Positions 23,442 through 59,157 of a stretch of DNA of 64,000 nucleotides are shown piece by piece; within the stretch, counting starts at the first letter, position 1; each line of letters opens with the position of its first letter. The stretch is from positions 17,769,101 through 17,833,100 of the forward strand of contig NC_134025.1 in assembly GCF_964204645.1 (NCBI RefSeq), in the 5' to 3' direction. The DNA is from Tubulanus polymorphus (Eukaryota > Animalia > Nemertea). Both the position numbers and the translations under genes were made by a program. A model generated the notes under the pieces. It had not been told where the DNA came from, ran no database searches, and saw nothing but the letters and a program-made list of their open reading frames with translations.

Positions 23442-24262
23442 CAGAGATGCTAGGGCCAAAGTACCAAAATTCCGGAATTTAGAACGGGCGTTTTTGCATC
23501 GCTGGAGATGCAGTGTCACGATCGGCATCTTTCATCTGAAAATACGACGGCAGGCATTCGTTGTGCTTCACATCCTCGCTGCCTTCTTATGCCGCGCGCT
23601 ATCCGGGTGACGAAGAATATCTTTTTTCCCGCCACTACCGTATTTGCCCTGGTCTTTACAAAGGACGCAGTACGCCACGCCAGCTAAGTCTATCTTATGA
23701 ATGTAGTTCGATAAGTAGTCCCCGTTACTGTTCTTACACTCTAGCCATTGCCGGTTAAATTTATTTTTTATACAGTTGTCAATTGCCTTTATATCGGCCG
23801 ACTCCCGACTGACAATCTTTCCGTGCATGCTCATTTTGCAGACCGTCTCGCAAAAAGAAAGTTACAAAGCTGCGTGGTAATAATTAAGATGATATTTATT
23901 AAATATTATCTTAATTATTACCACGTGCATCTTCACATTGTTGGCCGTCAGCGGGACGATGTACAACGGCACGTAAAGATAATTGACTTTTAATTGGAAA
24001 TGGCGTCACAACAGTGGCGCTCCGCCTACGCACGCACAGATACCACAACAAGCACACATATATACATTGTAGCAGAACGTCCTCGGAAACAGAGATCAAG
24101 ATAAAATAACACAGAAGCGACGACGAGTACAAACAAACGAACGCTTTTACGGTCCGTGCCATTACTGGTCGCCGCGAGGAATTCTCACCAAATTTCCGGA
24201 ATAGACATCGGCGATCCTAAATTTCTGGAATTCCGGATATTTCCAGAAAACTAGCATCTCTG
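23442..24262 (-). mobile_element. Internally deleted hAT-like element with 6-bp TSD ATAGTA in Harbinger intron 1
   Basis: Perfect 12-bp TIR CAGAGATGCTAG/CTAGCATCTCTG with ATAGTA on both sides. It retains an N-terminal zinc-finger ORF. Confidence 0.88.
23568..23834 (-). pseudogene. Truncated transposase N-terminus with BED-like zinc finger
   Basis: KNKFNRQWLE...AYCVLC...KKDILRHPDSARH (C2H2 spacing), inside the TIR element. Confidence 0.65.
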
Positions 24263-26045: not shown

Positions 26046-27300
26046 TTATTCCTCTTTTTCTAAGTGTTTTATCTTCAATTCTAACAGGCGAACACGCAAT
26101 GCTGATTCTTTTTCGAAGACGGACATTTCCATTTCCATTTTCTTTGTTTTGGCCTTCATGAACATAACTTGTTCATTAAGTAGATCCTGCTGGGTAAATC
26201 TTCTTTTCTTCGCTTTGTTTTCTGGAACGAGAAATGAACGAGCATACAATCGATTTGTAATACAAAAATAAATCAGATTACATTTAGAATGCGATTATTT
26301 GATAACTTTGATCAATACATAATTTGTGACACTTACCGCATGAAATATTTTCGGTCGATTCTTTTAAAGAATTTTGCGTAACCGTATCTTGCAGCAGGAT
26401 TTTGTTGGAGAGTACGATGTAATCTGTGTGAAAAAATATAATTTTTGAGTCCAGCGGGATTCGAGCCCTGCCTGCTCTGCAAAAAAGGCGGCGCTCGTGG
26501 CACGATGCCAGCCATTGCTGCATGTATTTTTGGGTCTAGCAGTAGACACTGTAAATTTAGGATTATGTATCAATCACAAAGCACTTGGAGGGATTATAGG
26601 CTTTGAATGCTTGGAAGTCCAGACGTGTTCAGTGTACTATCCAGTAGGTAACATGGCATAAGCTTAGATAAACAGGGTAAGTAAGAATTTAAATCTTCTA
26701 GTCACGAGGTCATGATCTATTTTCCGACCCTGGAATTCCAGGATACTTCCTGGATAGTTTTTAAGGTCATCAATGACGTCATCACACAGCCGATGATGTA
26801 AACAAATGCTCAACTCATTAGATTCACACCCTCAGGTCCAAAACCAAATGATTTCTTACCCTGTTCTTCATTTAATGCATCCAATAAAGATATTCCTTGA
26901 CCTTCTTGTTGCCCAGTCTTTTCAAATACGGGAAAACTGTCGAGATAATCGGTGTCTGGAATGCCGCTCCATGCCACCCGGTTTTCATTCACGGCGACGA
27001 TCTTTTCATATTTTTCACTTTCGCTTTTGAGGACATGTTTTTCCATTTATACTTAATGTCCTCAGGCTTGCGGACAGCGTTTCCCAGGCTATTGACAGCC
27101 GCCGTAATATCTTTCCAAAGCGCCTGCTTCCTTCTATTGGAGATATCTGTCGTCAGTTTCGAAAACAAGACGTCCTTATTCTTGAGCACCATATCTGATA
27201 AAGCCGCCATTTCGTCTTTGCTAAAATTGCATCCTCTTGCCCTTTTTTGTTTGAAATCAGAGGAGGCAACGTCGCTGATGGGATTCGAAAACAACGCCAT
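26046..27300 (-). pseudogene. Harbinger Myb/SANT (MADF-like) DNA-binding protein, multi-exon, disrupted
   Basis: RARGCNFSKDEM...KQALWKDITAAVNS...RKPEDIKYKWKNM, and a C-terminal coiled coil (RVRLLELKIKHLEKEE). There is a premature stop at 26989. Internal exons are uncertain. Confidence 0.85.
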
Positions 27301-29928
27301 TTTTAACTCTGATGATGAATTGTGGGATACTAACTCAGAGTTAGTTAACTCAGAGCTAACCATGAACTGTGGAACACAATTTTAACCCTCGATTTACTAA
27401 CTCTGAGTTAAAAATTTGACCCTAGGGGCAAAAGCTAACCCAGAGTTAACTTTAACTCACAACTGTGGAACTGGGCCCTGGAGGCTAAAAAAGTCAATGG
27501 CAAGCCCTATCTGCGATTAACCGTTTGGACTCTACGGGCTCGAAAATGGGACCCCAAATTTTTCAAAGAGATTTTTGCTCCTAGCTCCTTAACCGGTGGA
27601 GATAGAATTGTGGTTGCAATGAGTGATCAGTAGCCCTTGACAAAACGCTTGTATTGATCATGGGTTAACTATGTAACTCATATGGTTCTCCAGTAGCGCC
27701 ACCTATAAGATGCTGGAAAACACATTTTCATCTATATCTACTAAGGGTATCATTAGATTTCTATAAAAATTGATACACATGTACCTGGTTACTAAATGCA
27801 ACGAACCCCTCACATGATTAGTTCCTATTTCAACCACTAGGGGGCATAAATTTTGAAAAATTGATTTCAGCATCGATTTTTCGTATGTAATGCGGGCTGT
27901 TTATTATGAAAATCACAACACTTGGTATAAGTACAAACACATGTGTGTAATATGCCAACCTGCATGATTAGTTCATACAACTGCCACCAGGGGACTGTGA
28001 AAACTACGATTTTTGCTCCTAGGTCCTTAACCGTTAGTGATAGAATCGAGGTTGCAATGTGTGGTTAGTACCCCTTTACAAGACACTTGTATTAGTGTAA
28101 GATTTAAGTAGGTAACTCATATGGTGCTCCAGTAGCGCTAACTACAAATTGTTGGAAATGCATTTTCATTGATATCTACTTATCGGATGGAGGGATTTCT
28201 ATGAAAATTGATACACATGTACTTTGTTACGAGGGAATGGTAGAACACTGTATCACCTATTTTCTTGAAGTTATTTTCCCTAAACTTGGTACATCATTAC
28301 TTTGCACTTACGAGCCACGGGTCAACATATCCATGATATGGGCTGACCCGTGATACAGGCTGACCCCTAGGTGGCGCTTCTCAGATAGTGGTACATAATG
28401 AACTGATTTCAGTGAAATCTTTTGCAACCTTCCTAGTACGGTATTTAACCCGACAAGACAGAAAACCGTTATCGCTGCTTTGCAGCTATATTTAGGGTTT
28501 TCTGTTACATCACAGAAAACCCTATTTAGATTCGCGTGTTTCTTATTATCATTTTTTTTTTTTCAACACTTTTTTTGTCTAAAGTACATAGGCTTTTTTA
28601 CATTATCGCTGTTGCCGATACAATCCGTCTGATATCATTCAGCTCACTTCGATCTACAAATATTCCGTGCAAATATTGAAGAATCAACGTTACAAAAGCA
28701 CTGTCAGGCCGTAAACATCGAAAATTGAGCCCCATTCAAAGAGCCGACATGTTTTTCTAAGTCGTCTTTCCGAAATCTATCGCACTTTTCTTGTCACGTC
28801 GATTATCAATTCAAGCATAAATTAACAAATTTATTACCTAAAGATTGCACATTCTGTCGCGGTTTTTAAAAACTAATTTTAACAATAGCCCATTTTCCTC
28901 ATCAAATCATATTACTGATACACAGGAAATTTACTACTAATTTCTAAAGCCGTAAACATCGACAAATCGACGTGTGTCACTACATCATCGTTCCGGGGAT
29001 CAGCTGCGAGTTTCTCCTCATCATGAGAATCAAATCGAGTACAAATCAATTTATTACTACCAGTGATTTGGCTGCGGGCGTCAAGCAGTTAGTTTAGCAA
29101 TACCTAGTTTTTTTCTTTATCAAATTAACCGTGTATTTGCTAAGATAAATCATAAGTGTACCGGGGAGTCGTAGGCCTAAACAAAACATGCCGAAGAGAT
29201 ATAGCGGAGAAAAGCTGTTATGTCGACGAGGTATCAAAATAAAAGAATATATTACTTTATTCGGCCGCAGGCCTCAACCTCTATATCAATACCATCAATT
29301 CTCTATATTTCCTACAGTACATACCGATCATTGTCAAATGCACAAGGTATTTACTAAATACAAGTATATAACACACTGCTTTCCGTATGCTGGACTCACA
29401 CTTGACATTCGGATTAAGCGTTCGCTGTGGGGGAAAGGAGATCGTTCGTTGTGTCGCTTGAAGTGTTTATCGAGTTTGACGCGACTTTAGGCCTAACGGT
29501 AGTGAGCTTTACTGTCTCAAACAATCACAGTATAATTGTTGCGTTTATTAACGGACTCATTGGATTGAACATCAAAACAAAATTTACGATATTTAGGAGG
29601 GTTGTTATTCAATAGGCCCACGACCAATCTGTCCGGATGTTAGGCCTACGCATATACATAGGCCTACATAGGCTAATATAGTAGCCTCTACTAGGTAAGG
29701 TTAAAGCTAAGTTCACTGTAAAGGAGGAATCAGATTTAGTAAAATGCATGTTAATTAGTGATTAACTGGTTCTGACTTGCAACGATCAATCACAATTATC
29801 AATTTTATTGGAAAAAATGAAGATTTTTTTGAAAATTTTGTCTGAGCAGGCAGCTTTATAAGCCAGACTTTTCATTTGAGTTTTTTCATAAAAAATGAAA
29901 CTGGTATTTCATTAATTCCTAATGACTA

Positions 29929-32543: not shown

Positions 32544-33835
32544 AGTGATCACTCAGATCTGTCGTGTTCATATTCGAAATACTTGATAAATTGAAATCGG
32601 ATGATGTTGATCATAAGCTATTGGGTTTGAATCTCACTATAACCGTTGTGTGCAACATAAAAAAAAGTATCAGGGTGGATTTGGGCAGCTTGAGGAGTAA
32701 TAGGCAGGGCGGATACGGGCAGCTTGAGTGCTAATGGGTTAATGAAATGCATATGTAAATGCCTATAGGCACTTAAGGTTCCTATTAATCACATACCTGT
32801 TAATCTTCCAGAGCCTGGACAATTGGTGTCTACATCATTTATCCCCTTTTGGGGAGAGGCATAATTGATGTTCGTGATATCAATGATAGGTTCAACCGAT
32901 TCACAAGTTGCCAGTTTGCAAATTGAAGAGCAAAAGAAAAACCACTTAACGTATCTGCTGCCGTATTTTGGATCAACTAACGAAACTGAAAAAGAAAGAA
33001 AAAACATGCATACTTGATTTTAATGTGAATTTAAAATGTCAGACTGGGACAAATACCAATGCAACTGAGAAGAAATATATAGCCCAGCTTTTGATGGCAG
33101 CAGCCAAGTTACCAACAACTGAGCCAGAATGCTGGATATCATCACCCACCAGCGGCTTTTCGGCAACATTGGATTAACCTGGTAAAACTACGCAATGAAT
33201 TGCGAGAGACGAATAGAATAAAAGTCCCACAATCGCAGGATCTAAAAAGTTTAAAATCTAAAAAGTTCAATTAAAATTTATCAATAAACTGCCCATGGGC
33301 AAAGTGTGGTTTACCTTGAAAGCTAGAGGTTGTTTGGAGTAAGGGCATTGCTTGAAAAATCTTTTTAATTCGTGATTTCAAAGTTCTTGAAGTTTATATT
33401 TTATTTTATCTTTCTTAAAGAATTATTTTGTAGTCAAATAAGTCCATAGATAAACTTTTGTTTATTGTCTACGTCCAAAATTTTGTAGGGTACAGGGGTG
33501 CAGGGAAACTATTTTATATTTTCAAAAAATCATTTTTCACCATATGAAAAAAATATTCAAATATAATTCATATGATGTCACATATCAGGGGGTGGCTGAA
33601 TATTGAGTCTTGGAAAGGAAACCTCTTCCAATATATGACCGCGGAAGCTAAAACACGGGGGCGTAGTATTAGATCGTTTTAAATCCTGGAATTTACCACT
33701 TCAATATTCAGACCTCGACCTATACCTATAGTTTGCTGCTTCGTATTTCAGGTCACAAAAAATAACAATTTATTACAAATTCTATCAAACAGAAAACACA
33801 GCGCTAAAACACCATCCTATAGACTATCTAAATAT

Positions 33836-35176
33836 TTGGCGAAAACTCTTTCACCGGTTCTTGGCTCATTTTCGAATGCCCATTTACGCCATAACCAGGA
33901 CTTATTGGAATGTTTAAAAAATGTTATTCCTGGGCATGATAAATTTACATCTTTTGATGTTGCTAGCTTATTCACTAATGTTCCTTTAGAACCTACTTTG
34001 GACTTTCTTAGGAGAAAGTTACCTACTTTAGATTTTCATTTTGATATACCGGTTGATTGTCTTTTGGACTTAATTGAACTTTGTACAAAAAACTTAAATT
34101 TTCAATTTGGTTCTTACTTTTTTGAACAGATTTTTGGTATGGCTATGGGGAATCCACTTTCCCATGTTCTTGCTGGTTTTTTTTTGGAACATGTCGAAAG
34201 TGAAATTCTTCCTCTTTACACTGAAAGTAGACCCAAAATTTGGCGACGTTACGTTGATGATATTCTTTGTTTAGTTTCCCCCGATTTTAATGTAAATGGA
34301 TTCTTACATTATTTGAACTCTTTATATCCTACTTTGAATTTCACTTTTGAGTGGGAAGAAAAAAATAATTGCATCCCGTTTCTCGATGTACTCATTCATA
34401 ATTTCAAAACAAATTTGAAATAATCTGTATATAGAAAACCGACTAACGCTGAAGCTTATCTTCATTTTTTCTCATTTACTCCTTTGAACATCAAAATTCG
34501 AATAGCCCAAGGATTATTTCTTCGAGCTCTATGTATTTGTGATCAAATGTTTTTAGATAAAGAAATCAAACATATAAGAACTGCTCTCAAGAAACTAGCC
34601 TATCCAGACAAAATTTTGAACAAAGCTTATTTCAAAGCCCGAATTTCTCACTTTGGACATAATGACCTGACCAGAAAACGCAGAGCTCAAAAGAATATTA
34701 TAATCCCGTATTTACCTACTTTGGAACGCCTTAAATCCACATTAAGCACCATCGACACAAGATTAGTCTTTCAGTATAATAACAAACTCACTAATGTTTT
34801 AACCAAAAATAAACCCAACAGTGAGCTAATTGAGTCAGGGGTCTATAAGATACCATGTAAAGACTGTAATATGATGTACATCGGCGAAACGGGACGTAAT
34901 CTCAGTCAGCGTATTAAAGAACACAAAATAGATATCCGCAACCAAAAGCCTGAGAGTGGAATAGCGAATCATGTCTTTACAACCAATCACCAATTTGACA
35001 TTCAGAATTCGAAACTTATTTATCCTTGTAAAGATATTCATAAGAGACACATAGTGGAATCAGCCCTTATATGTAAACTTTCGAAATCCAATTTATCTAC
35101 TAATTTAAATACTGGTTTTTCTCCACATAACCAATTATTATCCAGACACATCAACTCTTTATTAGATTTGGGTTGA
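33836..35176 (+). pseudogene. Penelope RT + GIY-YIG endonuclease, one in-frame stop (34421-34423)
   Basis: SFDVASLFTNVP, GMAMGNPLS, WRRYVDD, PFLDVL, VYRKPT and SGVYKIPCKDC..YIGETGR...RIKEH. Confidence 0.93.
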
Positions 35177-43410: not shown

Positions 43411-45539
43411 ATCGAGTGAGTCGAAAGCTTTAGAAAGATCTAAATATACACTTAGCATAAAGTTCTTTGTATCAATACTATTAATAGCATGACTCAAAAA
43501 TTCAGTCAAAGCATGACAGGTTGAGTGATTGGCTCTAAATCCGTATTGGCTTTAATAGAGTAAGTTATTTTTATTGACAAAGTCGTAGTCTTTTATGTAT
43601 GATCTTTTCCAGTAATTTAGATAAAACTGGTAGGAGGGATATCGGTCTATAATTATTGATGTCTTTTTTGTCTTTAGCTTTAAAAATTGGCACAACTTAA
43701 GCGGTTTTCATATTTGTAGGCAAGTGACCTTCACTCATCGACTTGTTGAATACAATTGTTAAAGGCATAGAAATCTCATGGGCAATTGATTTTATTAGTA
43801 TGTTATTCAAATTATCATGACCACAGCTAGTTTTGTAAGGTAGACTATTTATGAAAGTTTGAACTTCTTTTTGGTCCGTAGGAAGAAGAAATATTGAGTT
43901 ATTGTTAGATCGCTTTAAGTATACATCATAATTATTGGTAGGGTTCTGTATTTTTGAGGCAAATGACTTTCCAACTGTACTGAAAAAATCATTGAAAGAG
44001 TTACATATTTCTACAGGATCACTTATTACTTTTCCTTTAATTATGAAATTACTAGAAGTTACACATGTTTTATCATTTGCTTACCTATGACTGTTTTCAA
44101 TAAACTCCACAGCTTTCTTGCATTATTTTCAAACGATAAAATTTTGTCAGCGTAGTAGGTTTTCTTGGCCCTACGCATTATATAATTTAAGTTGTTCCGA
44201 TAATTTAAGTAGTTTACATATCGTGGGTGAGTTTTCTCAAGTCCTATTACTTTTTTATACATTTTATCATTAGTGCGCGAAGCTATACAAAGGCCTTTAG
44301 TCATCCAAGGTTCATTAATGTTAAGTTTTCTAGTGGTTTTAAGTTTGCAAGGAGATACTTCATCTACAGAATGTTTTATATTTTGGACAACAAAATCATA
44401 ACCGGCTTCACAGTTTAATTCTTGCAGAGTGTGCCAATTTATATTAGACAATTTTTGTTTTATTTTAATGACATTTGCATCAGATAAATCTCTATAATAA
44501 AACTGTTCATTGACTACTTTGGTTGTATGCTTTTGTGTATCAATTGTAGTGAGGCACGCAAAATGATCAGATACATGATTAGTAAGAATGTAGCTTTCAT
44601 AATTATTGAACTCTGAACTAATATATATGTTATCTATTAAAGTTGCTGTTTTAGAAGTTACTCTAGTTGGTCTTATGATAGTTGGTAATAAGTTATGACT
44701 AAGATTTGAATTTAAAAATTCTGCAGTGTTTTTATGCTGATTAATTTTAATTAGGTCAAGATTCTGGTCCATGCCTAATGTAGCGAGTTTATTTTCTCGA
44801 CTTATAGCTTCAAGCAAGTTGTTCTAGTCGGACAGGAATTCCATTTCACTTGTTCCTGGGATTCTATAGATCTCACCTAGTATTATATTTTTAGAGTTTA
44901 TTCTTTTTATTTCGAGGATACACGATGCAAACTGTCTTTCTTTAAAAATTGATAGATCACCTCGAATTTTAAAATCGATTTCATCATTTATATAGATTGC
45001 AACTCCTCCTCGAATTAGATTGGTGCGGTGCCTTTCTACAAAATTATATCTTGGTATATTATAAAGATCAAAATTTACATCGTTTAGAAATGTCTCGCAT
45101 AACATTATTACATCTTACATTTTGCTCCTCTTCCGCAGATTCAACTCAAATTATCATTGCAAGCGTTTGCGGGATCAGCCGTCGATTTCGCTAGACTGTT
45201 TATTACCATTCAGGGTCGAGGAAAATGCCGTAAAAACGATATCTCTGTTTATTCGCATGTTTGCTTTCCCGTGCGGTCCATCTTGAGATGGCTACTAGTT
45301 TAGATACTGATGCATTTTTAAACCTGTTTTATGGAATGGCTAGTCGTCGAGGAATGCCGTTGGAAATGTCATCAGGTAATGGGACAAACTTTGTCGGTGC
45401 AGCTCTTGTACTTAAGGAATTGGTTAGTTTGTTAGATGTGGATAGAATTCAACAGCGACAATCAACAGCGAATCGTGGTGTTAGGTGGAACTTTTATCCA
45501 CCCGCAGCCCCTCATTTCTGGGGTGTCCACGAAACAATG

Positions 45540-45735
45540 ACTAGGGGTCCGGGGACACCATGCCCACTTGGGAAGTGGTTTCAAATGCTCAACAATCTAA
45601 CAATTTCAATATTCAATGCCCAATCCAATGACCTTGAAACTCACCACAATCATAGGACCATGTCAGCAGTTACAATTTTGTAATTGATTGTGGTAAAAAA
45701 ATATGCCTACTTACCAATAAAATATGGATATACTA
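45540..45735 (-). repeat. Family A terminal fragment
   Basis: ACTAGGGGTCCGGGGACACCATGCCCACTTGGGAAG followed by a partial satellite unit. Confidence 0.8.
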
Positions 45736-45924: not shown

Positions 45925-47141
45925 ACTAGGGGTCCAGGGACACCATGCCCACTTGGGAAGTGGTTTCAAATGCTCAACAATCTAACAATTTCAACATTCA
46001 ACGCCCCCTGGTGACCATTTACAAAAACCAATGACCTTGAAACTCACCACAATCATAGAACATGTCACCAGCTACGATTTTGTAATTGATTGTGATAACA
46101 AAATATGCCTCGGAAATACTAAGTCATTCTACTATTCAACGCCCTCTGGTGACAATATTCAAAACCCAATGACCTCGAAACTCACCCCAATCATAAAACG
46201 TGTCATGAAATACAACTTTGCAATTGATCATGGTAACAAAATATGCCTAGGTACCAATATAATAAGGAAATACTAATTTATTCTACTATTCAACGCCCCC
46301 TGGTGACCATATAGAAAAACTTATGTCCTTAAAACTCGCTACAACTTTCCAATTGATTGTGGTTACAAAATATGCATATAATAAAGAAATGCTAAGATAT
46401 TGTATTATTCAACGCCCCCTGGTGGCCATATACGAAATCCAATTACCTTGAAACTCACCACAATCATAGAACACGTTATGAGCTACAACTTTCTAATTGA
46501 TTGTGGTAGCAATATACGCTTAGGTATCAATAAAATGTGGAAAAACTTTTTCCCATTTACGAATGAGTACTGGTGACACCAAGATGGCTGCCAATTGCGT
46601 CATAATTGGCTGATGAAAAATGCCTGTCTCAGGTATAACACATCCCTTTCCAAAGAATACCCATCACAAATTGTAATGAGAAATGGCAAACCAGTAGGAA
46701 GCTACAGGACTCAGAATTCGGGCCAAAATTAACATTTTTGGGCACTAAAAAGGTCATAGGACGGCCATCTTGAGTCCGACCGACCCAATTTTTGTTATGT
46801 TGATGGGCCCTGGGGGGATTCACATACATCCAAAAGATCAAGGTAATTGATCAAAGCGTCTTCAAAATTTCCCTCAAAAAGTTCAAAAATGTGTAAAAAG
46901 TGCTGATTTTGGCGAAAAACAATGGCTGCCAGTCGGCCATCTTGATTCTGACAGGGCCAGTTTTTAGGCTGAAGATGTGTCTAGGGTAGATACATGTGTA
47001 ACCCAAATATCAAGACATTACCTTGAAGCGTCTTCAAAACTTCCCAAAATAACTGGATTCCGTCTACGGACGGATGGACGGACGACGGACGAAAAGTGAA
47101 CGCAATAGCCCGCTGGGACTAAAGTCCCAAGTGGGCTAAAA
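45925..47141 (-). mobile_element. Complete family A HINE-like element (~1.2 kb)
   Basis: Subterminal inverted repeat GCCCACTTGGGA (~45947) / TCCCAAGTGGGC (~47125), terminal hairpins, ACGG microsatellite and satellite units, with A/T-run flanks and no TSD. Confidence 0.85.
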
Positions 47142-47744
47142 ATGGAGGAAAAGAGTGTGACTATGAGAAATTTGGCATTATATTCACCGTAACTTGTTAT
47201 GATGTGCATCCATCACTTCATGTGCCGTAGATATGCTAAAAATGGACGTATTTTCGACGTATCACCAAAATGCCAAGCACATGGCCATCTTAATTATTGC
47301 AACGACTGCGTATGTCTATTATGCATATAAATAGCCTCTATTACGCTTGCGCATTCCCGTAACTCTGTTCCTGGAAACGAGACGCTAGCCAGTTGCTCGT
47401 AAAAACGCGCACCGGTTCACTGGTTCAGCGTCACTTGCAAATACAGTGTGAACGGCTGTTATCAGCGGGGCCTTTGATCTAATCGCTGGTGCACTGTCCT
47501 TCGGCCCAAGTATAGTATACAACGAAATAGTGCAATGCGCAAGGTGAATAAGTAGTGATTCGGTCCTGTATTATTCGATCTCAGATCAACAGGTCTACAC
47601 GTCGATTTTAGCCAATAACCGAAAATGAAATGTAGACCTGTTAACCTGTTTACAATTCCAGCACAAAAAAACATTAAAAAGAAAATAAATGGAAAGACGG
47701 CGAAAATATTTTAACACAATTGTTTCGTTTATTCAAAATAATGT

Positions 47745-49999
47745 TTATTTCACAGGGTACTTACTGGCTTGCAATATTCTCAAGCAGCTTGTAATAAACA
47801 TCACCATTTTTGGAACCAAAACGATAACGGTACATATACTCATCTAAGTATCAAGGTAGCTGACTGGACAAACAACCATGGCGCTGTTTGATTTTCCCCT
47901 TAACATGGCCCCAAATTCCTTCTATAGTATTGGTACATACGCCCTCAACACTTTTGAATTCCTTGGAGTGATTCACTGTACCATGCTTGTATCCTAGTTT
48001 CTGGAGGCTATTATACGAAGACCACATATCAGAGAACACAGTAGCCCCACTTTTAACCACTTCATTAATAATGGGCAGTAGCATATTTGCGATGATACGA
48101 TGTGCAATTCCAAATTACGAGTACCTCACTGACACAAGCCAAACACCCAATTTCGTTGTTTTCCAGTTCCCCGATGATACTTGGCTTTCTTCCCAAATAG
48201 GCTTTCGTCTATTTCTACAATACCATCTGAACAATCACCATTCATCTCAACTGGGTTTTTTATGAGAGCAGCGGACATAATCTCCTGTAAAAAATGGTAG
48301 TGGTCCATCACAGTCTTTTTACCAATGTCGGGATCCTCTTTCATCATTTCGGATTGTTGCAAGTCGATACCAAATGCGTAATTATAAACACCAGGGTTTC
48401 CAATTTTAATTTTGACTTGGAGAAATATGACCCGGTTCTGAGCGATTTCGAGCATTGACAACTCTTACAATACCATGCCACGCCATCAGATGTGTTCCCA
48501 CGTGGAGTCAATGACATATCAATGCAACATGTCTGAAACAGATGACAATTTATCATTAAAGGGGCACTGCACTCAGCAGATTGTTTATTCTATATTACCA
48601 CCAGATTTTGAAAACTTGTAGACCTGTAGAATGTAGACTTTCAACAATTATGTATCTAATATGCCATGTAACCGCTATGTTTATGTAATATTGTTTTGTT
48701 TTTCTTTTCATCTCGAGACCACATATAACATGGTTCCTACAGATTGGTCTTTCCAGAATTTTAGGGTTTTTTTAGGGGTTTTTTAGAAGATATTAACCTA
48801 AATTTTAGGGGCCAATTATAATTATCGACACTTTTTTCCTACTGAAACTAACAACAAAAATCAAAAGCATATAACCATATGTATTAACAAAACCCATATT
48901 TATTCTGCACTGTGTTCAGATACACAAAAGTTACAACGATATTCCTCACGACTGCTAAGAGAAACTATTCGATACTAAAGTGTAATATCCAGTTCATAAA
49001 TTTTGCTTGAATAATGTTCAATTAATTGGCTAACTTAGGGATTTGTTCAATTATGAGTAATTTGTCTATTGGTTTAATTAAGAGCCTGAGGTTTGTGGCC
49101 AGTTAAAAAACCGTTTAGTGTATATGACTAGTAGGCCTACTTAATTAGTGCTTTAAATACAATAAGCAGGAGGTGATTGGATAGTCTCTCTATCACCTCC
49201 CTGGTTAGTCAACAGTTCCTTCACTAGCCAGTACATTTAATAATAATAGGCCTTTAGTGTCTGTGTGCTTGCATCTAATCTAAATTACATCTACAATGAC
49301 CAGTGGAAACAATGAGCTGAATTGAGCTACTAACTTTAACACAATTCAAAGGAATATAAAAGCCCACTATGATGTTTCACATACAGCATCACATTCAAAA
49401 ATGATCCTAAGATTTTTTACGGAGATGATTTCCAGAATTTTAGGGGTATTTTAGGGGCCTGAGGTTCAAAAGCCAGAATTTTAGGGTATTTCTCCCCTAA
49501 AAAATGGAATTCCGGAATTTTAGGGTATTTTAGGGGCTGTAGGAACCATGTATAATGTCCCCGGACGATTTGTGGTCGTCCATTCTATATTGTAATTTTT
49601 ATGATCATTATAAAATTTCAATGGTTAAAAAAAACTGCCCAGGGGTAACACAGATCATGATCAATTGTATTTCGATAATTACTTTAGCCAAAATATGATG
49701 TCATGGCTTTGATAACTCGGCTTTAGATTAAGTTTCCACAGAGAAATTAATGATTTTGTTACACATTCAATTCCAATACAGAAAAGAATCAAACACTGAT
49801 TTTCCACAATGATTGAACAAGTAACATTTACTGAAAAACGTACCTTACACATGGATTTGGATGCAAGAAGTTTATGGGACATCAAATATTTCCGACAACT
49901 TTCTACAGATGCAAGGCTTTCGGGAACCAATTTTATCACACCAGGGGCTGGCGCATTTTCCACATTTCCAACCGATGAACTATTGCTTTCCTCCGCCAT
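47745..49999 (-). pseudogene. Merlin transposase, exon 1 49999-49844 and exon 2 from 48532, with stops and frameshifts
   Basis: Splicing yields MCK|TC...SDGVAWYCKSC (Zn ribbon). Also VEIDESLFGKKAKYHRG, WVFG, VFSDMWSSY, HGTVNHS, TNTIEGIW and YLDEYMYR. Confidence 0.9.
48729..49550. mobile_element. Second copy of the CATGGTTCCTACAG MITE, 5-bp TSD TATAA, in the Merlin intron
   Basis: Perfect 14-bp TIR with TATAA on both sides. Near-identical to 19246-20077. Confidence 0.93.
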
Positions 50000-50231
50000 T
50001 TAAGACAAATTGATAAACATATATAACTATTTTATCATGAGGCCAATTATTTTACAATGTCGTGGGCGTTCGCAAGGCCGTCACCACATGTTATTCGCCT
50101 CGGATAAGCATTCATAATTGCGAATATGCCCATTCAAAATCGGATTAGCTGGATTCCATGCCGTCGTTATTTCCTCTTGTCATATTTGAACCCGGTCAAT
50201 CGTCTTCCACCAATCAGATGGCCGTATTTGC

Positions 50232-50383
50232 TGTCGATATTTCCTCGATATATACAACTACGTCTTTATAGTACGAGAACACCGTTTATTCTGCCTAATC
50301 CCGCCAACCCCGGTGAGCGTTGGCGCATGGAAAATATATGAAAGTTAATCTACCGTTTCAATGACTAAATCATATCTCCAACA
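50232..50383 (-). repeat. 3' LTR of BEL/Pao
   Basis: TGTCGATATTTCC...CTCCAACA, direct repeat of 55873-56024. Confidence 0.95.
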
Positions 50384-50419
50384 CTCTCCGGGGGTGAACG
50401 AGTTACATAATATTAATTA

Positions 50420-53400
50420 CGAGAAATTTCGGTTCTTGGCTTCTGTTTTGGCTCGTCTTGGTAACCAATCATCTTCTGCATGAGTTCTAGTTCGGCCATC
50501 TTCTTCTGCATGAGTTCTAGTTCAGCCATCTTCTGCTGCATGAGTTCGTCTATCGTCTTCGACGTCTATGTTGGTGTATTTGACATCTGGACTGGCTTGT
50601 AGTTCAAGCGGATACAGCTTGGACACTGCTCGGTTCGTGAAACCATTTGCTGTCTTTAATGCAACAGATCTACATATTCTATCTGGTCCATAGAACAGTT
50701 CTGTCACTAGTCCCAACTTCCATTTAAGCCTTGGCGTTTCTTCATGTATGATCACCACTTCGCCAACCTTTATTTGTTCTTCTTTTCCAGATCGTTGATT
50801 ATACTCTCTTAGGGCTGTAAGATACTCTTTAGACCATCGACTACGAAATCGCGTTAATATCTCGTCTAATCTTCTAGCTCTCACGTCTGCTTCATTCTTC
50901 TGAATCTGGAAGTCTGGATCTTCCAGCTCTTCCGGGGTGATAAAATCATGTGGAAGTGTAGTCAGCCGATGACCACACATCAGCTGCGACGGTGTAACAG
51001 GGGCTTCATCGTTTATGTCGGTAGAACTGTACGTCAGTGGTCTGTCGTTGACGATAGCCTCTGCTTCCGATACCACTGTCCGAAATTCATCAAACGAGAT
51101 AAGAGCTCTTCCTATAACCTTCTTCAATACCATCTTTACAATGCCAACTAAACGCTCCCAAAAGCCTCCATGCCATGGAGCCCTTTTCGTTATGAAGGAC
51201 CACTCTACTCCTTTCTTTGACACATATTCTGATGCTTTCTTGAAGGTTGCAGCATTATCAGTCAAAACCTTCTTTGGTAGAGATCTACGGCTTACGAATC
51301 TTCTAAAAGCTCTCATGAACGATTCTGTAGACTGATCTTCTGTGACTTCCAAATGTAAACCTCTACTCACTGAGCATGTGAATAGACAGATATAGCACTT
51401 CTGAGATTCTGACATCATCTTCACGTTGAACGGACCAGCAAAGTCAATACCAGTATGGAAAAACGCGGGAACATCTGCTACTCGCGCACCTGGCAACGGT
51501 GGCTCGACAGGAAGCTTGAATGGACGACCTGATAGTTTACGACAGACGACACATTGACGGACCATACTCTTCACTAACTGACGTACACACGGAATCCAAA
51601 TGACTGTCGGATGAAAGTTACGGTTGAATTAATCCCAAGATGGAAAACTCTCTCATGTGCATCTCGAACGACAAGTTGAGCCAATCTGTGAGTTTTCGGC
51701 AACAATACTGGGAACTTTGCAGAGAACGGCAGATCCGAGTTACCAATTCGACCATGACATCTAATCACGCCATCATCATCGATGTAGAGATTAAGTTGAT
51801 GAACGATATCAACCTTAATCTTACTACGTACTAGATCTGCATCATTTCTCGAGCAGCAGCGAATTCGTCTCTCGGTGCCGCTTTAATCCATTCAATTCTA
51901 GCTCTTTCGATTTCAGACGATCTCAAATTTTCTTCTCTGTTTTTCTGATCACCACGTACAACATCAACGAATCTCATTACCCATGCTGATATTCTAAATA
52001 ATCTGTTTAAATCAGAATAATCTCGAGCATCAATAATCTGATCAATCCCAATCTTCTCAGGTTCAATGTTCTTTCCTACTTCTTCAAGTACTGGTAATTG
52101 AACATTCAGCAACGTTGACTCAGCAGACCATTTAGGGTGATCACCAGTGCGTAACCATTCTGGGCCTTCCCACCATAGTCTATTGCATCTTAGCTCAGAT
52201 GCTGTACAACCGCGTGTTAATACATCAGCTGGATTCTCTGAACTTGGGCAGTATCCCCAAACAGCATCTGGAACTTGACTCTTAATTTCTGTAATTCTGT
52301 TCAATTCGAATGACTTCAATGATTTATCAGATTGTAATCTATACAGTACTGACTGGTTATCAGACCACGCAAACAGCTTCTTAGGTGTACCAATCGCATC
52401 CAAGATAAACTTAGCCAACCGTGACGCAATTACACCAGCGACAAGTTCCAGTTGTGGAATTGATAGTTGTTTAACGGGTGCAACTCTTGACTTCGACATC
52501 AGTAATCTTGAATCTGTATCACGAACTAGATAAGCGACAGCTCCATAAGCCTGTTCACTTGCATCTGCTAATACATGTAACTCGCAGCCTTCTATCGAGT
52601 CTAAACCATAGTCAAACGTCATACGTCCATAGTCAAAATCCAGAGCTTGAGATGTTTCTGTCGAAATTTTAACCCAACGATCTTTAATATCTTCTGGTAC
52701 TGGATCATCCCATACAAGACTTCTTCTCCATATATCCTGCAGCAGTGCTTTAGCGTTAATCAACAGTGGAGAAATAAATCCTATCGGATCGTAGACCTTT
52801 GATGTATCACTGAGAATCATTCGTTTAGTCAATGAATCTTGATGAATCGACGAAAATGTAACGGGTAATAGTCTCAAATTATCATTTTCAGAATCCCATC
52901 TGAGTCCAAGTACCTTCACTTTAACCGATTTCTCAGCAACACCATCTCGTTCCGCTCGTTCCATTACTTCTGGACAATTACTACTCCATGATCGTAAATT
53001 AAAACCACCTTTCTTCAATAACTGACGAGAATGTTCTTAAAAATCTGTCATAGATGACTGCTCATTCATCGAGATTATGACATTATCCACGTATATATTC
53101 TTAGCAATCAAATCAGTGATTGATGACGTATTCAGCTGTAAATGTTTAAGGACTGTAGCATTAAGAATGAACGGCGAGCACGTTGCTCCAAACAATACCG
53201 CGCAAAATCTGAATGTCACCAAATTACTTCCTGGATTTTTTGGATCTTCTAACCAGAGAAAACGTGTCATATCTCTATCCTGTTCTGCCAGAAGGATGAA
53301 TAGAAAAGCTTTTTCCAAGTCTGAGACCGCAGCATATCTCCCGATTCTAAAACGCAATAACATTCCGACAATATCATTGTGTAGAGGGGGTCCCGATTCC

Positions 53401-55846
53401 AGAGAGTCATTCAAGCTTATGGATGAATTTGTCTTACAGCTACAATCAAAGACAATACGGAGCGGTGTTGTACTAGAGTCTTTTATCACGGCATGATGTG
53501 GTAAATAATTACATGATCCATCAGTTGGTGCTGCGTCTGGAACTCGTTCTATAAATCCTCTTCTTTCTTGTTCTGTTATTAGACCAGCATAAGTCTCTAA
53601 CATTGAATTGCTAACCAATCGTTTTATAGTCGACATAGTCCGTGCACGACACATTGTAAAATTGTCATTCAATGGCGGGTGGTCACTCTTCCATTGTAGA
53701 CGCGCAACATATTTACTGTCGGTAAATTTAATCGACTCAGCACAGTACTCCTCCATAGAAACTGACTCACACTTCGATGCATCAGGACTTTCAATCCCTA
53801 TAGATTCCAATTCCCATAGTCTTTTCATATTGAGTTTATCGTCGGTACTGTCAACCAATGTGTCTAGCATTGTCACCATTGACGCGGACGAATGACTACT
53901 ATATGCTTCGCTGATCGGACCCGACAATAAATAACCAATTTTCGAATTAACTGCCACGGGATAATTTTCACTCGATCCTCTGATTATCTCATTATATCAT
54001 CAACAATATTGTAGTAATAATCCGATCCGATTAGTACAGTGATGTTGAATAAATCAGTATCATCAACGGGATGCGCTAATGTCAAATTTTCCAAATGAGA
54101 AAATTCTTTAGTAATTTTAGACATATTCTTTATCGGTGCTGCAATTTCCGGAACGACAAGTAACTCCATCTCAAAAACTTCTTCACCTCTGCATATCAAC
54201 CTTAGTTTAACCACAGGAAGAAGACGTACATCACTTGCCGACTGAGACCCAAAACTAGCCAATTGTAACAGATCTTCACGCTCAGTAACAAGTTGAAGTT
54301 CTTCAGCCAACGAATCTTGAATAAAACTTCTTTGAGACCCATCATCTAATAAAATATTAGCTTTTGTTCTAATTCCCGATACAGCATTTTCAACTTGCGA
54401 AACAGCAGTTTTCAGTTATCCTCCTTGTAGTGTAGCATTACAGTAATTTCCAGAGACAGCAACAGCAACATTCCTAGATACGGTTGGGGCATCAATATTC
54501 TGAATTACATCTACCTGGCTAGAATCAGCATTATCATGGACCGCAGCAGAGACCTGACTTTGACTTTGACCTTGACCTTGACCATTTTGTAATGACGAAT
54601 CTGGTACTCTTGGGTTTTGAACACCTGCCAAATCTGAACTCGAACCCTGTCCTCCAGTCTGTGCTTGTCCTCGTGACTGACTTCCGGTACAAATACTAGT
54701 GTGATGTCTTCCAACATGGCATTTTTTACATTTGATTCTTGACGGACACTGACGTGACTGATGACTCGAAATTAAGCAGTTAAAACAAAGACCAAGTTGT
54801 TTTATTCGATTTTTCCTCGCTTCGACGGTTACGAATTGAATACAGTTGGTAGCTTTATGTCCAGCTGAACAATAGTGACACTTCAAAGGACCAATCTGGC
54901 ATCGAATACCTGCAGAACCAACGACCATTGTGGAAATTTCTTCGGGCTTTGTGCCAGGTTGGTAACCAGCTCCCATGACAAAAACCTCATTTTCCAGCCC
55001 ACTAATAACCTCGCTTAAGCTATATTCACGGTCACCATATTTTCTCGCTAGGTTACGTTGTACTTCACTGGGCAACTTGTCCATAACAATAGGGACCAAT
55101 ATACCGCCGAAATAATCGTCGTCTTTACCGTATGTTCTCAATGTACGCATATACGAGCCCAATTTATCGGAAAATTTACGGAGACAAATATAAGTATATA
55201 AAGGCTTTTCCAAATCAATCACGGCACGCATATATGCCTTTGTAACTACGTGTGGCTGTCCGAATCGACTTTTCAAAATTGTACAGGCTTCCTTATAAGC
55301 ATTTTCTGTTATTGGCAAACCAGCAATAGCGTCAGCTGCTTCTCCAATGAGCTGGGCTTTCAAATAAGTGAATTTCTGAACATTAGTCATCATGGTGGAC
55401 GAGTTTACAGCGCTGTCAAAGCTATCCCAAAAGCCAGACCATTCTAGTATTTTTCCAGAAAATTTGGGTAGAATTAATTTTGGTAGATTTACCTTTCTAG
55501 CGTTGTCAGAATTCCTAGATAGTCCTGAATTTCCTTGTCCTGAATTTCCAAGAGGCCAATCGATGAGTTTTGATTCCACTTTTCGCAAATCCAATTTTTT
55601 TGACAGAATATCCTCCTCCGCTCCTTCGAAAAATGCTGCGAACTGATCATCGGTCGACAATTCACATATCCTTTAATTCAATTCCTCAATTTTAGCTAAT
55701 GTTCCTCGAACGCTTTCCAAAATGATGCAGATTTCTTGCGATTTAGTATAATCAGATGTAGCGATTAATGCGTTAATCTTCGTAATTTGATTATCGTAAT
55801 GCCCCCGGTGGGCGTCCCTAGATCGCACGATCGTATCCCTGCTCAT
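50420..55846 (-). pseudogene. BEL/Pao gag-pol polyprotein with several stops and frameshifts
   Basis: Gag LPKLILPKFSG..EWSGFWDSF with Zn knuckles, protease LLDDGSQRSFI, RT YLPHHAV/LRIVFD/YVDN, RNase H ADASEQAYGAVAY and integrase GIDFAGP/TDNA/GGFWERLV. Confidence 0.95.
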
Positions 55847-55872
55847 TTTTCCAAGCTCAAGAGGAACCAAAA

Positions 55873-56024
55873 TGTCGATATTTCCTCGATATATACAACT
55901 ACATTTTTATAGTACGAGAACACCGTTTATTCTGCCTAATCCCGCCAACCCCGGTGAGCGTTGGAGCATGGAAAATATATAAAAGTTAATCTACCGTTCC
56001 AATGACTAAATCATATCTCCAACA
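55873..56024 (-). repeat. 5' LTR of BEL/Pao
   Basis: Direct repeat of 50232-50383. Confidence 0.95.
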
Positions 56025-56139
56025 TTTGCCGTATCTATTTCATGTAGAAACTTCTACGAGCTCTGCCAGTTAGAAAGAACCCGATTCTATTTCATGTTGA
56101 AATTGATCACGTGACCAACCCCTTCTCTGAAAACGACAC

Positions 56140-56206
56140 AAACTCGTGGGATTCGAGACCACTGACACCATTATCAAAACCTACGTCTTAACCACCTAAG
56201 CCACGA
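56140..56206 (-). other. tRNA-like sequence (Pol III A/B boxes) inside Merlin
   Basis: Minus strand GTGGCTTAGGTGGTTAAGACG...GGTCTCGAATCCCACGAG. Anticodon arm is poor. Confidence 0.5.
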
Positions 56207-57093
56207 AGGATTGATATAGAGGCCTTTATTTCATAAGCTATAGTTTTGGTTGAGTAGTCAATTAATCATTGTGTATTATCTGCGACATGAATCTCATTTG
56301 ATATTGTTTTTAATAAACATGAAATATATATTTATTCTTATTCTTATTGATTTATTAACTACATTCACATTTTTTATTCATAACTTGTGGATTAATTCAA
56401 TAAAGTTTAATCACCTAATCATAACTACATTGAATAACTATAACGATATTTAATTATTTTTATTTTGGCACAATTATACTAATATGATTATGATAAGTAT
56501 AATCATTTGATTATTCTATCAAAATTAGGCCTATGTTTAAGTTTGATCACCTAGTCATAACTTTTCTAACGATATTATATTCATAAATATATCAGGGATT
56601 AATGATTCACGTTTAATCACCTGATCATTTTTTTTCAGTAGGATTGCACTTAATCTTATACAGCTTTTTTAGAGTATTAAATGGGGATATACATTTCAAT
56701 ACAATTATTAGGCTAGAATTATTGGATTGTTTTATCATAATTATATCTAAAGTTTGATTTCCTAATCATAACTATATTAGGGAGTCATTTAATCAAGTTT
56801 GATCACAATTTCATTTCACCCTAAATTATCATGGAAAAATCTTCGAGCAATGATAGTTTTCAGTAGGCATCAATCTTCAACAAGTCAGTGTATATGAAAT
56901 GAGGATTTACATTTCAACCGTAAGGCTGGTACGACGAGTATGTGATATATGTCTCGGTCGATTGACCGGGTTCTATAATGATGTCACATTTCTACGTGAA
57001 TAGAACGCGAATACGCGGTTCTATATCGCGTAGAAATGTGGCCTCGTTTTCTAACAATACATTGAATACTATCGTCGCATACTGACCAGCAAC

Positions 57094-57749
57094 ATGTCGA
57101 CGAGTAGACGTACGTTCAGTAGGGAAAGTATTAAAAAGATATATAAAACTGCATATTCTATTAAAGTACCATGGTCAGATATATTATCGCCAGAAATATA
57201 TCAATGGATAACCATAATACAGAAAGCCTACAATATTCCAATGGAGATACTGATCACTAGTATTTGCTCAATGGCAGCCGCACTTACCGGTCCAACAACT
57301 ACGATTACAGCTGGCACCTACCAATCACCAATGAATGTTTATCTAATCACAGTGAGTGATCCCGGAGGTGGCAAGTCCATGGCTTACCAGAAGATAATAT
57401 TGCCGGGAATGAGGTTTTACATCAGTGTGGTTTCTAAAAAATTACAGCCTCGAAACATACACTACCGCCGGCATTCATCATCACCAAGCTACCAATAAAG
57501 GATATGGCATTATAGTTAGCGATGAAGGAACAAGAATACTTCAACAGATAAACTCGAAACAAAACAAGGGAGAATCTGAAAGGAGCTTATTATGTAAAAT
57601 GTGGGGAGGGCTTGGTGATGCCAGCACTTTGTCAACGGGGGTAAGGGGATTCGAAAGAATGGCACTATGTATGCAGGTGATGATTCAAATAGACCCACTG
57701 ATACACGAATTGGATAACATGATTAATATCAACGATGGCTTCCTGGATG

Positions 57750-57824
<75 letters not shown>

Positions 57825-57991
57825 CATCCATAGATATTCAGAGATATACTGACAAGTTCTTCAATACAGACGGAGTCTCACACGTAATTCTGGAACTTAC
57901 TAAAACACACCACCCGCACATCGAGATAATATCCCATCGCATCGATTTCGGAGACGAGCCTACACAGAATGATGGCTCCCAAACTCAATAA
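57094..57991 (+). pseudogene. DUF3987/YfjI-like P-loop NTPase gene carried inside Merlin, frameshifted and broken by (TA)n
   Basis: MNVYLITVSDPGGGKS (Walker A), YTTAGI, GIIVSDEG (Walker B), ERSLLCKMWGG, MIQ and NDGFLD. An open C-terminal piece after the TA run ends at TAA ~57990, overlapping AATAAA. Confidence 0.7.
57751..57822. repeat. (TA)n microsatellite
   Basis: Direct reading. Confidence 0.95.
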
Positions 57992-58249
57992 ACTCCGAGG
58001 CTCAAACTTATCGAGATTTTTATTTAATCGATGTAATTGTATTTTCAGACATGTAATGTTGACAACAGTGTCAAGACTGGGTCAAGCACCCATTTTGTTT
58101 GTTATTTTTTTGTTACTGAATAAACCAGTATTGGATCTGTTGTCTTGTTTACTGCATCTGTCTGTTCACCCGTTTACCTGCAAAGAATTGGCGGCTTCAG
58201 TGTATGCAAGTTCACCTGTTTACCTCGTGTTGAAACCCTATTTGGCGTA

Positions 58250-58600
58250 TCGTAGACCCGTAAACCTGTTCAACTCTTGTGTTCACTATTTCCCTGCCCC
58301 TCATCAGTGTTTTCCAGTTAACCAGTCCACCTGTAGACTTTGTGTGTCCACCCCCATTTATGTAGTGTATGCCCGTAGACCTGCAAACCTGTTCAACGTG
58401 TGTATCCCATGACATGTCCCCTCGAGCCACATGTCAGTTGACCGGTCAACCTGTAGACCTTGTGTGTCCACCCCCAATTACGTAGTGTAAGCCCGTAGAC
58501 CTGCAAACCTGTTCAACGTGTGTATCTGATGACGTGTGTATCTGATGACATGTCCCCTCGAGACACATGTCAGTTGACCAGTCAACCTGTAGACCTTGTG
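58250..58600. repeat. Merlin right subterminal tandem repeats (~120-bp units)
   Basis: ACCTGTAGACCTTGTGTGTCCACCCC...CCCGTAGACCTGCAAACCTGTTCAACGTG is repeated. The core also appears at 47589-47650. Confidence 0.85.
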
Positions 58601-59157
58601 TGGCGTAGGACTGGTATATATAAAGGCTTAACCTTTGTATGTCATGACTATCATAATTATAGATATATTATACACTCATGCGCATGAATATCTGCACTAT
58701 TTTTGTCGTATACTATACTTGGGCCTGTCCTTCTAGTTTACAAGTCCATGGTGAGTACAATGACAGTAGGCCTACATAATTGACATTAGTTCCCATTTAT
58801 ATTGACCTTTTCACTGCTTACATAAAACAATGAATGATAGAGAAACAGCCTTTTATATTGATATGTCCAGTGGCAAGTGGTACCAATGTGACTATTGTGT
58901 GGAGTTAATTGCAAATTGTAGGGAGGTGTCTGGTCAATGGACTATAGGCCTATGCATAAGCACAGGGCTGCATTCACAAATTGAATTGAAAAAAAATTTA
59001 CGGAGGCAATTTTCAGAATTTAAGGGGGATCATGGAAATTTGAGAGGTAAGCTTAAAATTTTAGGGTATTTAACCCCTTCAATGTGGATTTCCTGTATTT
59101 TAGGGTATTTAAGAAATTTAAGGACCATTCAAAGCAATTGATCATGGTAACAAAATA

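What the first reader, a model, noticed from the sequence alone, without database searches (positions are those of the whole stretch)
47503..58725. Two-gene Merlin transposon carrying a divergent DUF3987/YfjI-like P-loop NTPase
Seen: ~32-bp TIRs and a perfect 8-bp TSD bracket 11.2 kb. Removing the BEL/Pao and the MITE leaves a ~4.6-kb element with a minus-strand spliced Merlin transposase and a plus-strand second ORF with Walker A (SDPGGGKS) and Walker B (IIVSDEG) motifs. Known: Merlin elements are IS1595/IS1016-related, make 8-9-bp TSDs and are usually described with the transposase alone. DUF3987/YfjI proteins are helicase-like NTPases mostly associated with prokaryotic mobile elements. Inference: this may be an undescribed Merlin lineage with a dedicated accessory ATPase, or a vehicle that spread DUF3987-like genes in invertebrates. 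Both genes are disrupted in this copy.
Basis: partly seen in the sequence, partly recalled or inferred. Interest (0 to 1): 0.9.

Follow-up and report, generated by a model that had tools for sequence, protein, structure and literature searches.

The report
Merlin transposon carrying ring-helicase gene
This is a dead copy of a cut-and-paste "Merlin" jumping gene from an animal genome that holds, between its ends, the broken remains of a second gene for a predicted phage-type ring helicase; it likely belongs to a two-gene Merlin lineage that I did not find in print, in which the helicase would assist jumping, though I could not check that pairing in other genomes.

Summary
Observation confirmed. 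32-bp TIRs and a perfect 8-bp TSD bracket 47503-58725. Without a BEL/Pao and a MITE, 4,593 bp remain: a spliced, broken Merlin transposase (minus) and a head-to-head DUF3987 gene (plus).

Two corrections. (1) The gene is internally deleted, not merely disrupted: profile positions 7-226, then (TA)36 at the arginine-finger codon, then the C-terminal tail and stop (57824-57991). Both gene ends lie inside the TIRs, with no nested ends of their own. (2) DUF3987 is a published SF6, MCM-related helicase family. A full-length animal homologue models as MCM-like AAA+ plus winged helix.

Named animal homologues occur as 96-100% identical copies at several places per genome, as transposon genes do. In reads of the same species the helicase gene has about the depth of transposase exon 1, while the ends are 2.5-4-fold deeper; one internally deleted copy is mapped.

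Not shown: adjacency to Merlin in other genomes; every route I had gave nothing. The scan noted this pairing before in two other genomes, and DUF3987 beside KDZ and Mutator transposases in three (unchecked). Verdict: new variant of a known kind; about 0.6 that the gene is a standing part of the lineage.

The parts
47495..47502 (.). left 8-bp target-site duplication
   Evidence: identical to 58726-58733
47503..47534 (+). left TIR, 5'-GG start
47593..47655 (.). left subterminal 8-bp units (GTNNACC-type), likely transposase-binding repeats (inferred)
47745..48532 (-). Merlin transposase exon 2 with D (IDES), D (FSDM), E (TIEG); three frame breaks (near 48410, 48100, 47765) and two in-frame stops
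   Evidence: Pfam PF12762 E 2.9e-16; tblastn of homologues at 43-58% over the C-terminal piece; motif frames
48533..49843 (-). phase-0 GT..AG intron of the transposase, holding the MITE
48729..49550 (.). nested MITE, CATG ends, 5-bp TSD; not part of the Merlin
   Evidence: 97.6% copy at 19246-20078
49844..49999 (-). transposase exon 1 (52 codons from ATG); predicted from splice signals and reading frame only
   Evidence: no Pfam match on its own
50232..56024 (-). nested BEL/Pao LTR retrotransposon between the two start codons; not part of the Merlin
   Evidence: 152-bp LTRs, 5 differences, 5-bp TSD; ORFs; family label recognised from the ORFs, not scanned
57094..57750 (+). DUF3987 gene, 5' part (about 219 codons, one frame break near 57410-57445): Walker A, Walker B and sensor-1 position present; cut at the arginine-finger codon
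57751..57822 (.). (TA)36 tract standing where profile positions about 227-482 are missing
57824..57991 (+). C-terminal remnant of the DUF3987 gene with stop codon and overlapping AATAAA
   Evidence: best of 6,384 six-frame windows with a C-terminal profile, E 0.0058, 15.2 bits; best window elsewhere 6.2 bits
58164..58602 (.). right subterminal repeats (8-bp units within 58- and 120-bp periods)
58693..58725 (-). right TIR
58726..58733 (.). right 8-bp target-site duplication

Best explanation
This is a dead Merlin DNA transposon whose TIRs enclose a broken transposase gene and a broken DUF3987 gene set head to head, and it is likely a decayed member of a two-gene lineage in which the second product, a predicted MCM-like ring helicase, would act as a transposition helper. 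Shown: the ends, the 8-bp TSD, the DDE gene, both ends of the DUF3987 gene inside the TIRs, the family's conserved ATPase motifs, and later damage by a MITE, a BEL/Pao and an internal deletion. Established from print: DUF3987 proteins are SF6 helicases, and one is a 5'-3' ATP-dependent helicase. Inferred: the two genes were transcribed outward from the 1.3 kb between their start codons; the transposase bound the TIRs and 8-bp subterminal units and inserted with an 8-bp stagger; the helicase assembled as a ring and unwound or cleared DNA at the strand-transfer or donor site so that host repair synthesis could finish the job, rather than replicating the element by itself, since no primase or polymerase gene was seen. 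I put the standing two-gene lineage at 0.6 and, given that, a direct role at the transposition site at about 0.6.
For: Both termini of the gene, with stop and AATAAA, lie inside the TIRs and upstream of the right subterminal repeats. No nested TIR pair flanks the gene: 1 inverted 10-mer, 1.56 +/- 1.70 expected. In raw reads of a separate study (X5), depth over the helicase gene (9.3, 7.0, 5.9) is near that of exon 1 (5.1), while exon 2 (20.3, 18.5) and the right-end bins (21.6, 28.4) are higher; a joint 48423->58186 (7 reads from 5 starts in X5, one contig each in X1 and X3) marks a deletion derivative. So the only long form seen has both genes. Homologues: 234 representatives at E<=0.001 among 1.84 billion; Walker A K in 130 of 137, Walker B E in 130 of 139, arginine finger in 83 of 89 aligned residues. 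Named homologues are multicopy: Tubulanus 2 copies 99.8% identical on 2 contigs; 4 M. edulis proteins 98.3-99.8% on 4 scaffolds; Nematostella 2 copies 96%. Model of P0024 (pLDDT 88.8): the top Foldseek PDB hits are MCM; VIA Z 15.0, rmsd 4.4 over 271 residues to MCM7, and winged helices at 389-470; the top viral hits include phage DUF3987 and primase-helicase proteins. Precedent: Kolobok lineages with a RecQ helicase (PMC9587614 passages) and AcademH (PMC10045372 passage).
Against: No DNA around any animal homologue was obtained, so lineage-wide adjacency is untested. No contig length was shared between the DUF3987 proteins listed and the 81 Merlin/IS1595 hits (compared by eye; one search scored only 117 candidates). 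The Exaiptasia homologue KXJ08785 has no near-numbered Merlin in the Lopes protein list (0 hits for KXJ087 or AIPGENE266). Curated bivalve Merlins average 1,635 bp (3 consensus sequences; PMC10294476 passage), too short for two genes. Multicopy homologues show carriage by some transposon, not by Merlin; unchecked scan notes put DUF3987 beside KDZ and Mutator transposases too. Only about one long copy exists in this species, so n = 1. Mussel assemblies hold haplotigs, which inflate copy counts.
Confidence: 0.6

Rival explanations
1. One-off capture: an ordinary single-gene Merlin picked up a DUF3987 gene from another transposon (for example a KDZ or Mutator type) and carried it as passive cargo.
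For: Only about one copy with the gene in this species. Described Merlins have one gene and are short. Unchecked notes place DUF3987 in other superfamilies. The tests for adjacency elsewhere were blank.
Against: The whole gene from ATG to stop was inside, in a head-to-head layout, with no foreign ends or second transposase remains found. The same depth pattern appears in two independent samples. The copies lacking it also lack transposase exon 1.
Confidence: 0.27
2. The gene belongs to a separate nested element whose ends have decayed or were removed by the deletion.
For: This copy has already taken two nested insertions. The region 56030-56860 is AT-rich, internally repetitive and partly multicopy.
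Against: No inverted pair above chance and no direct repeat placed like a TSD around the gene. The deletion is internal to the gene, so it did not remove ends. The younger-looking nested elements kept their TSDs.
Confidence: 0.08
3. A captured host gene (Pack-type transduplication) of an ordinary animal DUF3987 enzyme.
For: The family has introns in animals: gene models of 500-550 aa against unspliced calls ending near residue 300.
Against: Homologues are near-identical and multicopy within genomes, and M. galloprovincialis holds at least two lineages about 48% alike. The nearest structural relatives are phage helicases. No deeper-covered parent locus shows at 88% likeness.
Confidence: 0.05

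Closest known systems
Merlin superfamily / IS1595 family (PMC8101967: abstract, introduction, section 10 part 1, passages, supplement 5 part 1)
   Same: GG termini, TIR within 24-462 bp, 8-bp TSD, DDE_Tnp_IS1595 domain with D, D, E, internal tandem repeats.
   Different: A second, divergently transcribed gene; the paper describes a transposase gene only and holds no 'helicase', 'DUF' or 'P-loop' in its main text and no 'DUF3987' in 11 supplements.
DUF3987 (PF13148, YfjI-like) SF6 helicases of phages and bacterial mobile elements (PMC4889955 passage; PMC11724360 passages)
   Same: Pfam match (full-length homologues E 1e-20 to 5e-32), Walker A/B, MCM-like AAA+ fold, C-terminal winged helix.
   Different: No primase or PriCT domain or partner; spliced animal gene; neighbour is a DDE transposase; sequence link to phage proteins is remote (one tblastn hit in 50,697 phage records, 22%, E 8e-3).
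AcademH and KolobokH helicase-carrying DNA transposons (passages in PMC10045372 and PMC9587614; the AcademH paper itself was not held)
   Same: Eukaryotic DDE TIR transposon with a helicase as accessory protein.
   Different: KolobokH carries a RecQ helicase; AcademH a helicase I recall as RecQ-like. Here it is a predicted AAA+ ring helicase, in a separate head-to-head gene, in another superfamily.
Transposon AAA+ regulators IstB, TnsC, MuB (recalled; only a reference title seen)
   Same: AAA+ ATPase encoded beside a DDE transposase.
   Different: None of them is among the 50 rows listed or the rows, which are led by MCM, BrxL, BchI, RavA, ComM and Cch; absence from a list does not exclude kinship.

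Membership tests
Merlin superfamily | DDE_Tnp_IS1595 transposase domain with D, D, E | tested here: met
   PF12762 E 2.9e-16; IDES, FSDM, TIEG located; best database hits 50-61%
Merlin superfamily | TIRs of 24-462 bp with 5'-GG | tested here: met
   32-33 bp, GG start (definition)
Merlin superfamily | 8- or 9-bp TSD | tested here: met
   8/8
Merlin superfamily | dispersed copies sharing the ends | tested here: met
   33 X5 reads and 6 X1 contigs at 47544 against 6-9 reads over the helicase gene; one deletion derivative mapped. Flanks of other copies were not seen.
Merlin superfamily | single transposase gene (as described for the IS1595 family) | tested here: not met
   second gene inside the TIRs; hence filed as a variant
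DUF3987 / SF6 helicase | PF13148 match above gathering score | tested here: met
   27.7 bits on one window piece; 7 of 7 full-length homologues 73-112 bits
DUF3987 / SF6 helicase | Walker A, Walker B, arginine finger | tested here: inconclusive
   conserved in the family; this copy keeps Walker A and B but is cut at the arginine-finger codon
DUF3987 / SF6 helicase | MCM-like AAA+ fold with C-terminal winged helix | tested here: met
   on the model of homologue P0024, not on this copy
DUF3987 / SF6 helicase | oligomeric ATP-dependent DNA unwinding | not testable with these tools
   shown only for bacterial AgaPH (PMC11724360 passages)
DUF3987 phage replication module | fused or adjacent AEP/DnaG primase | tested here: not met
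   no primase family on 7 window ORF pieces or 7 homologues; the gene begins at the AAA+ N-terminus; the deleted stretch is internal to the gene
Two-gene Merlin lineage (proposed) | Merlin and DUF3987 genes inside one TIR pair in several genomes | tested here: inconclusive
   met for this locus; no DNA from other animals obtained; indirect checks blank
Two-gene Merlin lineage (proposed) | purifying selection on the second gene among copies (dN/dS) | not testable with these tools
   no homologue DNA; only motif conservation at protein level

The most novel reading that the evidence does not exclude
Animal genomes harbour a phage-derived SF6 ring helicase that has become a swappable helper module of several cut-and-paste superfamilies (Merlin here; KDZ and Mutator in unchecked scan notes), giving these transposons an ATP-driven unwinding step, possibly a copy-out or replicative mode, not known for eukaryotic DDE elements.
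Probability: 0.3. Interest if true: 0.85.

Novelty: new variant of a known kind. Interest (0 to 1): 0.62.

Why it matters
Merlin is described as a one-gene superfamily, and DUF3987 helicases are described from phages and bacterial mobile elements; Kazlauskas et al. note that SF6 members were not found in eukaryotic viruses (PMC4889955 passage). A Merlin with an MCM-like helicase would be a eukaryotic TIR transposon with an AAA+ ring motor, which I did not find in print. It would explain a multicopy 'uncharacterized' (in Mytilus mislabelled RAD54) gene family of molluscs, nemerteans and cnidarians. It would also make a standing question testable: what accessory helicases do for cut-and-paste elements. 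Near-identical intact-looking copies in Mytilus and Tubulanus offer material for that. This particular copy is dead and matters only as a witness of the architecture.

Tried and rejected
No whole genome is held, so no TIR consensus or dN/dS. TIR scan of metagenome contigs: 2 hits (L001, L002), sharing only 18-19 bases, with no partner TIR, Merlin or DUF3987 profile match; rejected as uninformative. The search for related loci: viral contigs 0 confirmed in 5 scans; prokaryote genomes 1 weak locus of 31 candidates (L003, E 4e-4; no match to my animal profile at E<0.1). Word-based search for longer homologues: 0 of 1,092 candidates, a false blank, since one search found 501-515-aa relatives. Plasmids: no match. 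PDB sequence search: nothing better than E 0.025. No RNA holder listed. No fine-scale read picture of the right part of the element was obtained, so whether the (TA)36 junction is fixed, polymorphic or an assembly misjoin is open. Two of 271 proteins scanned (P0062, P0170, both DUF3987 pieces) hold peptide repeats that an 8-bp unit like this element's subterminal unit would give; tblastn support is only E 0.1, so it is kept as a lead. The rejoined empty site shows no long open frame. No complex was predicted, as no intact same-element pair was available. The tree of 45 homologues (FastTree) places the window protein in a 99-supported clade of 18 with the Tubulanus and Mytilus proteins, apart from the cnidarian ones; it says nothing on donor or order of events.
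Full report
Anatomy. The element runs from 47503 to 58725. Its first 18 bases match the reverse complement of its last 18 exactly, and the pair aligns over 32-33 bp at 91%. The 18-mer occurs nowhere else in the window with up to 3 mismatches (0.04 expected). An 8-bp TSD flanks it. Two nested elements have their own TSDs: a MITE (48729-49550, second copy at 97.6%) and a BEL/Pao (50232-56024, 152-bp LTRs with 5 differences). The remainder is 4,593 bp. All 16 matches to a tandem 8-bp unit in the 64-kb window (both strands, partly the same sites) fall in the two subterminal regions; I infer these are transposase-binding repeats.

Transposase. On the minus strand, exon 1 (49999-49844) joins in phase across a GT..AG intron to exon 2 at 48532. 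Exon 2 matches DDE_Tnp_IS1595 (E 2.9e-16) and carries D, D and E, the last two 36 codons apart. It has three frame breaks and two in-frame stops. The best database relatives are 50-61% identical over the C-terminal part (81 hits among 117 candidates), and one of them falls among eukaryotic clusters in the Atlas. Every positive Merlin criterion listed in PMC8101967 is met.

Second gene. Starting at ATG 57094, 1.3 kb from the transposase ATG once the BEL/Pao is removed, two frames match DUF3987. Read through its single frame break, the protein finds 14 close homologues among 151 candidates at 38-49% and 234 cluster representatives at E<=0.001. Full-length relatives are 500-550 aa. The window copy covers positions 7-226 of a 521-position profile and stops at a (TA)36 tract exactly at the arginine-finger codon. 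A profile of the C-terminal 60-78 residues of five homologues, run over 6,384 six-frame windows of the whole 64 kb, ranks the frame just after the tract first (E 0.0058, 15.2 bits; best elsewhere 6.2 bits), ending at a stop at 57989-57991 that overlaps an AATAAA. So about 255 codons were deleted from the middle, and both ends of the gene lie inside the TIRs. No nested TIR pair flanks the gene (1 inverted 10-mer, 1.56 +/- 1.70 expected).

What the protein is. Across aligned homologues the Walker A lysine (130 of 137), Walker B glutamate (130 of 139), the position I read as sensor 1 (Q, 86 of 103) and the arginine finger (83 of 89) are conserved (motif names from knowledge of AAA+ proteins). An AlphaFold2 model of the Tubulanus homologue (pLDDT 88.8) matches MCM helicases first in Foldseek (E 3.7e-8) and in VIA-align (Z 15.0, rmsd 4.4, 271 residues), with a winged helix at 389-470. 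Among viral models the top hits include phage DUF3987 and primase-helicase proteins (E down to 6.6e-15). This agrees with print: DUF3987 is an SF6 family distantly related to MCM with a C-terminal winged helix (PMC4889955, one passage), and a bacterial PriCT-DUF3987 protein is an oligomeric 5'-3' ATP-dependent helicase (PMC11724360, seven passages). No primase family was found on the window pieces or the homologues scanned.

Copies in this species. Raw reads of run X5 (a different study from the best holders) give depths of 9.3, 7.0 and 5.9 over the helicase gene and 5.1 over transposase exon 1, against 20.3 and 18.5 over exon 2, 33 at 47544 and 21.6 and 28.4 at the right end. Contigs of X1 show the same shape, though summed contig depth is no copy number. 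A joint 48423->58186 (7 reads from 5 starts in X5, one contig each in X1 and X3) defines a derivative of about 1.5 kb lacking both genes' 5' parts; 185 further joints were not displayed. The family thus looks like about one long, two-gene copy and a few deleted ones. This does not separate 'standing gene' from 'one-off cargo', but no full-length single-gene form showed up at 88% likeness.

Homologues elsewhere. Of 30 homologues looked up, seven carried organism names or had named members: Tubulanus, Mytilus (three clusters), Nematostella and Exaiptasia; the rest were unnamed or 'hypothetical'. The nearest Atlas cluster is 94% eukaryotic, commonest Rotifera. Within assemblies they are multicopy and nearly identical: Tubulanus 99.8% on two contigs, four M. 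edulis proteins 98.3-99.8% on four scaffolds, Nematostella 96%. This is how transposon genes behave, with the caveat of haplotigs in mussel assemblies. It does not show which transposon carries them.

What I could not show. No DNA around an animal homologue was available. Indirect checks were blank: no shared contig lengths with the 81 transposase hits, and no Merlin accession next to the Exaiptasia protein in the Lopes list. Curated bivalve Merlins average 1,635 bp, so most Merlins are not of this kind.

Mechanism. Shown: insertion with an 8-bp duplication by a Merlin DDE enzyme; a complete helicase-family gene once inside the ends. Inferred: divergent transcription, ring assembly, and ATP-driven unwinding or clearing at the strand-transfer or donor site, leaving synthesis to the host. 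Self-replication is less likely without a primase; an IstB/TnsC-like targeting role is possible, but the fold matches listed point to MCM. Precedents for helicase helpers are KolobokH (RecQ; PMC9587614 passages) and AcademH (PMC10045372 passage; the original paper was not held).

Novelty. Ten full-text searches (listings and abstract starts only, apart from the six papers opened) returned no paper pairing Merlin with a second gene; by title and abstract start, all 13 papers holding 'DUF3987' concern prokaryotes or their viruses. For PMC8101967 I saw the abstract, introduction, first part of section 10, passages, term searches of 11 supplements and part 1 of 2 of the Repbase table. Repbase and Dfam themselves, subscription papers and bioRxiv supplements could not be searched and may already hold such a consensus. 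Verdict: new variant of a known kind, interest 0.62.

Noticed in passing
window 57744-57829: The bases on either side of the (TA)36 tract are a 7-bp inverted pair, so the deletion junction reads as a hairpin centred on the microsatellite; may bear on how the deletion arose, or mark an assembly misjoin.
   Followed up: no
window 48729-49550 and 19246-20078: MITE of about 820 bp with CATG ends and 5-bp A/T-rich TSDs, two copies 97.6% alike; a related end-like stretch at 58997-59113. Superfamily not determined.
   Followed up: partly
window 46900-47143: Very high-copy short repeat with a sharp 3' boundary at 47142-47144 (about 8,500-fold in X5 against 6-9 over the helicase gene); SINE-like.
   Followed up: no
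window 49870-49844 and 48532-48460 (minus): The spliced transposase N-terminus has two cysteine clusters split by the intron, zinc-ribbon-like; PMC8101967's introduction says described Merlins lack Zn_Tnp_IS1595. The separate pieces gave no Pfam match.
   Followed up: partly
window 22883-27381: ORFs that look like a two-gene Harbinger element (nuclease on plus, Myb-like protein on minus); labels recalled, not scanned.
   Followed up: no
window 15826-16647; 33683-35176; 45234-45683: ORFs resembling a MULE transposase, a Penelope-type RT with GIY-YIG nuclease and a second BEL-type integrase piece; labels recalled, not scanned.
   Followed up: no
proteins P0026, P0177, P0184: Mytilus edulis homologues are named RAD54/RAD54L by their source; P0026 matches DUF3987 and no SNF2 family, so the name looks like a misannotation.
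   Followed up: partly
proteins P0062, P0170, P0079: Broken DUF3987 homologues from other genomes run into short tandem repeats; two fit an 8-bp unit like this element's subterminal unit.
   Followed up: partly
window 47244-47414: The left flank shows several sequence variants at about 35-fold depth in X5, so the Merlin inserted into another low-copy repeat.
   Followed up: no
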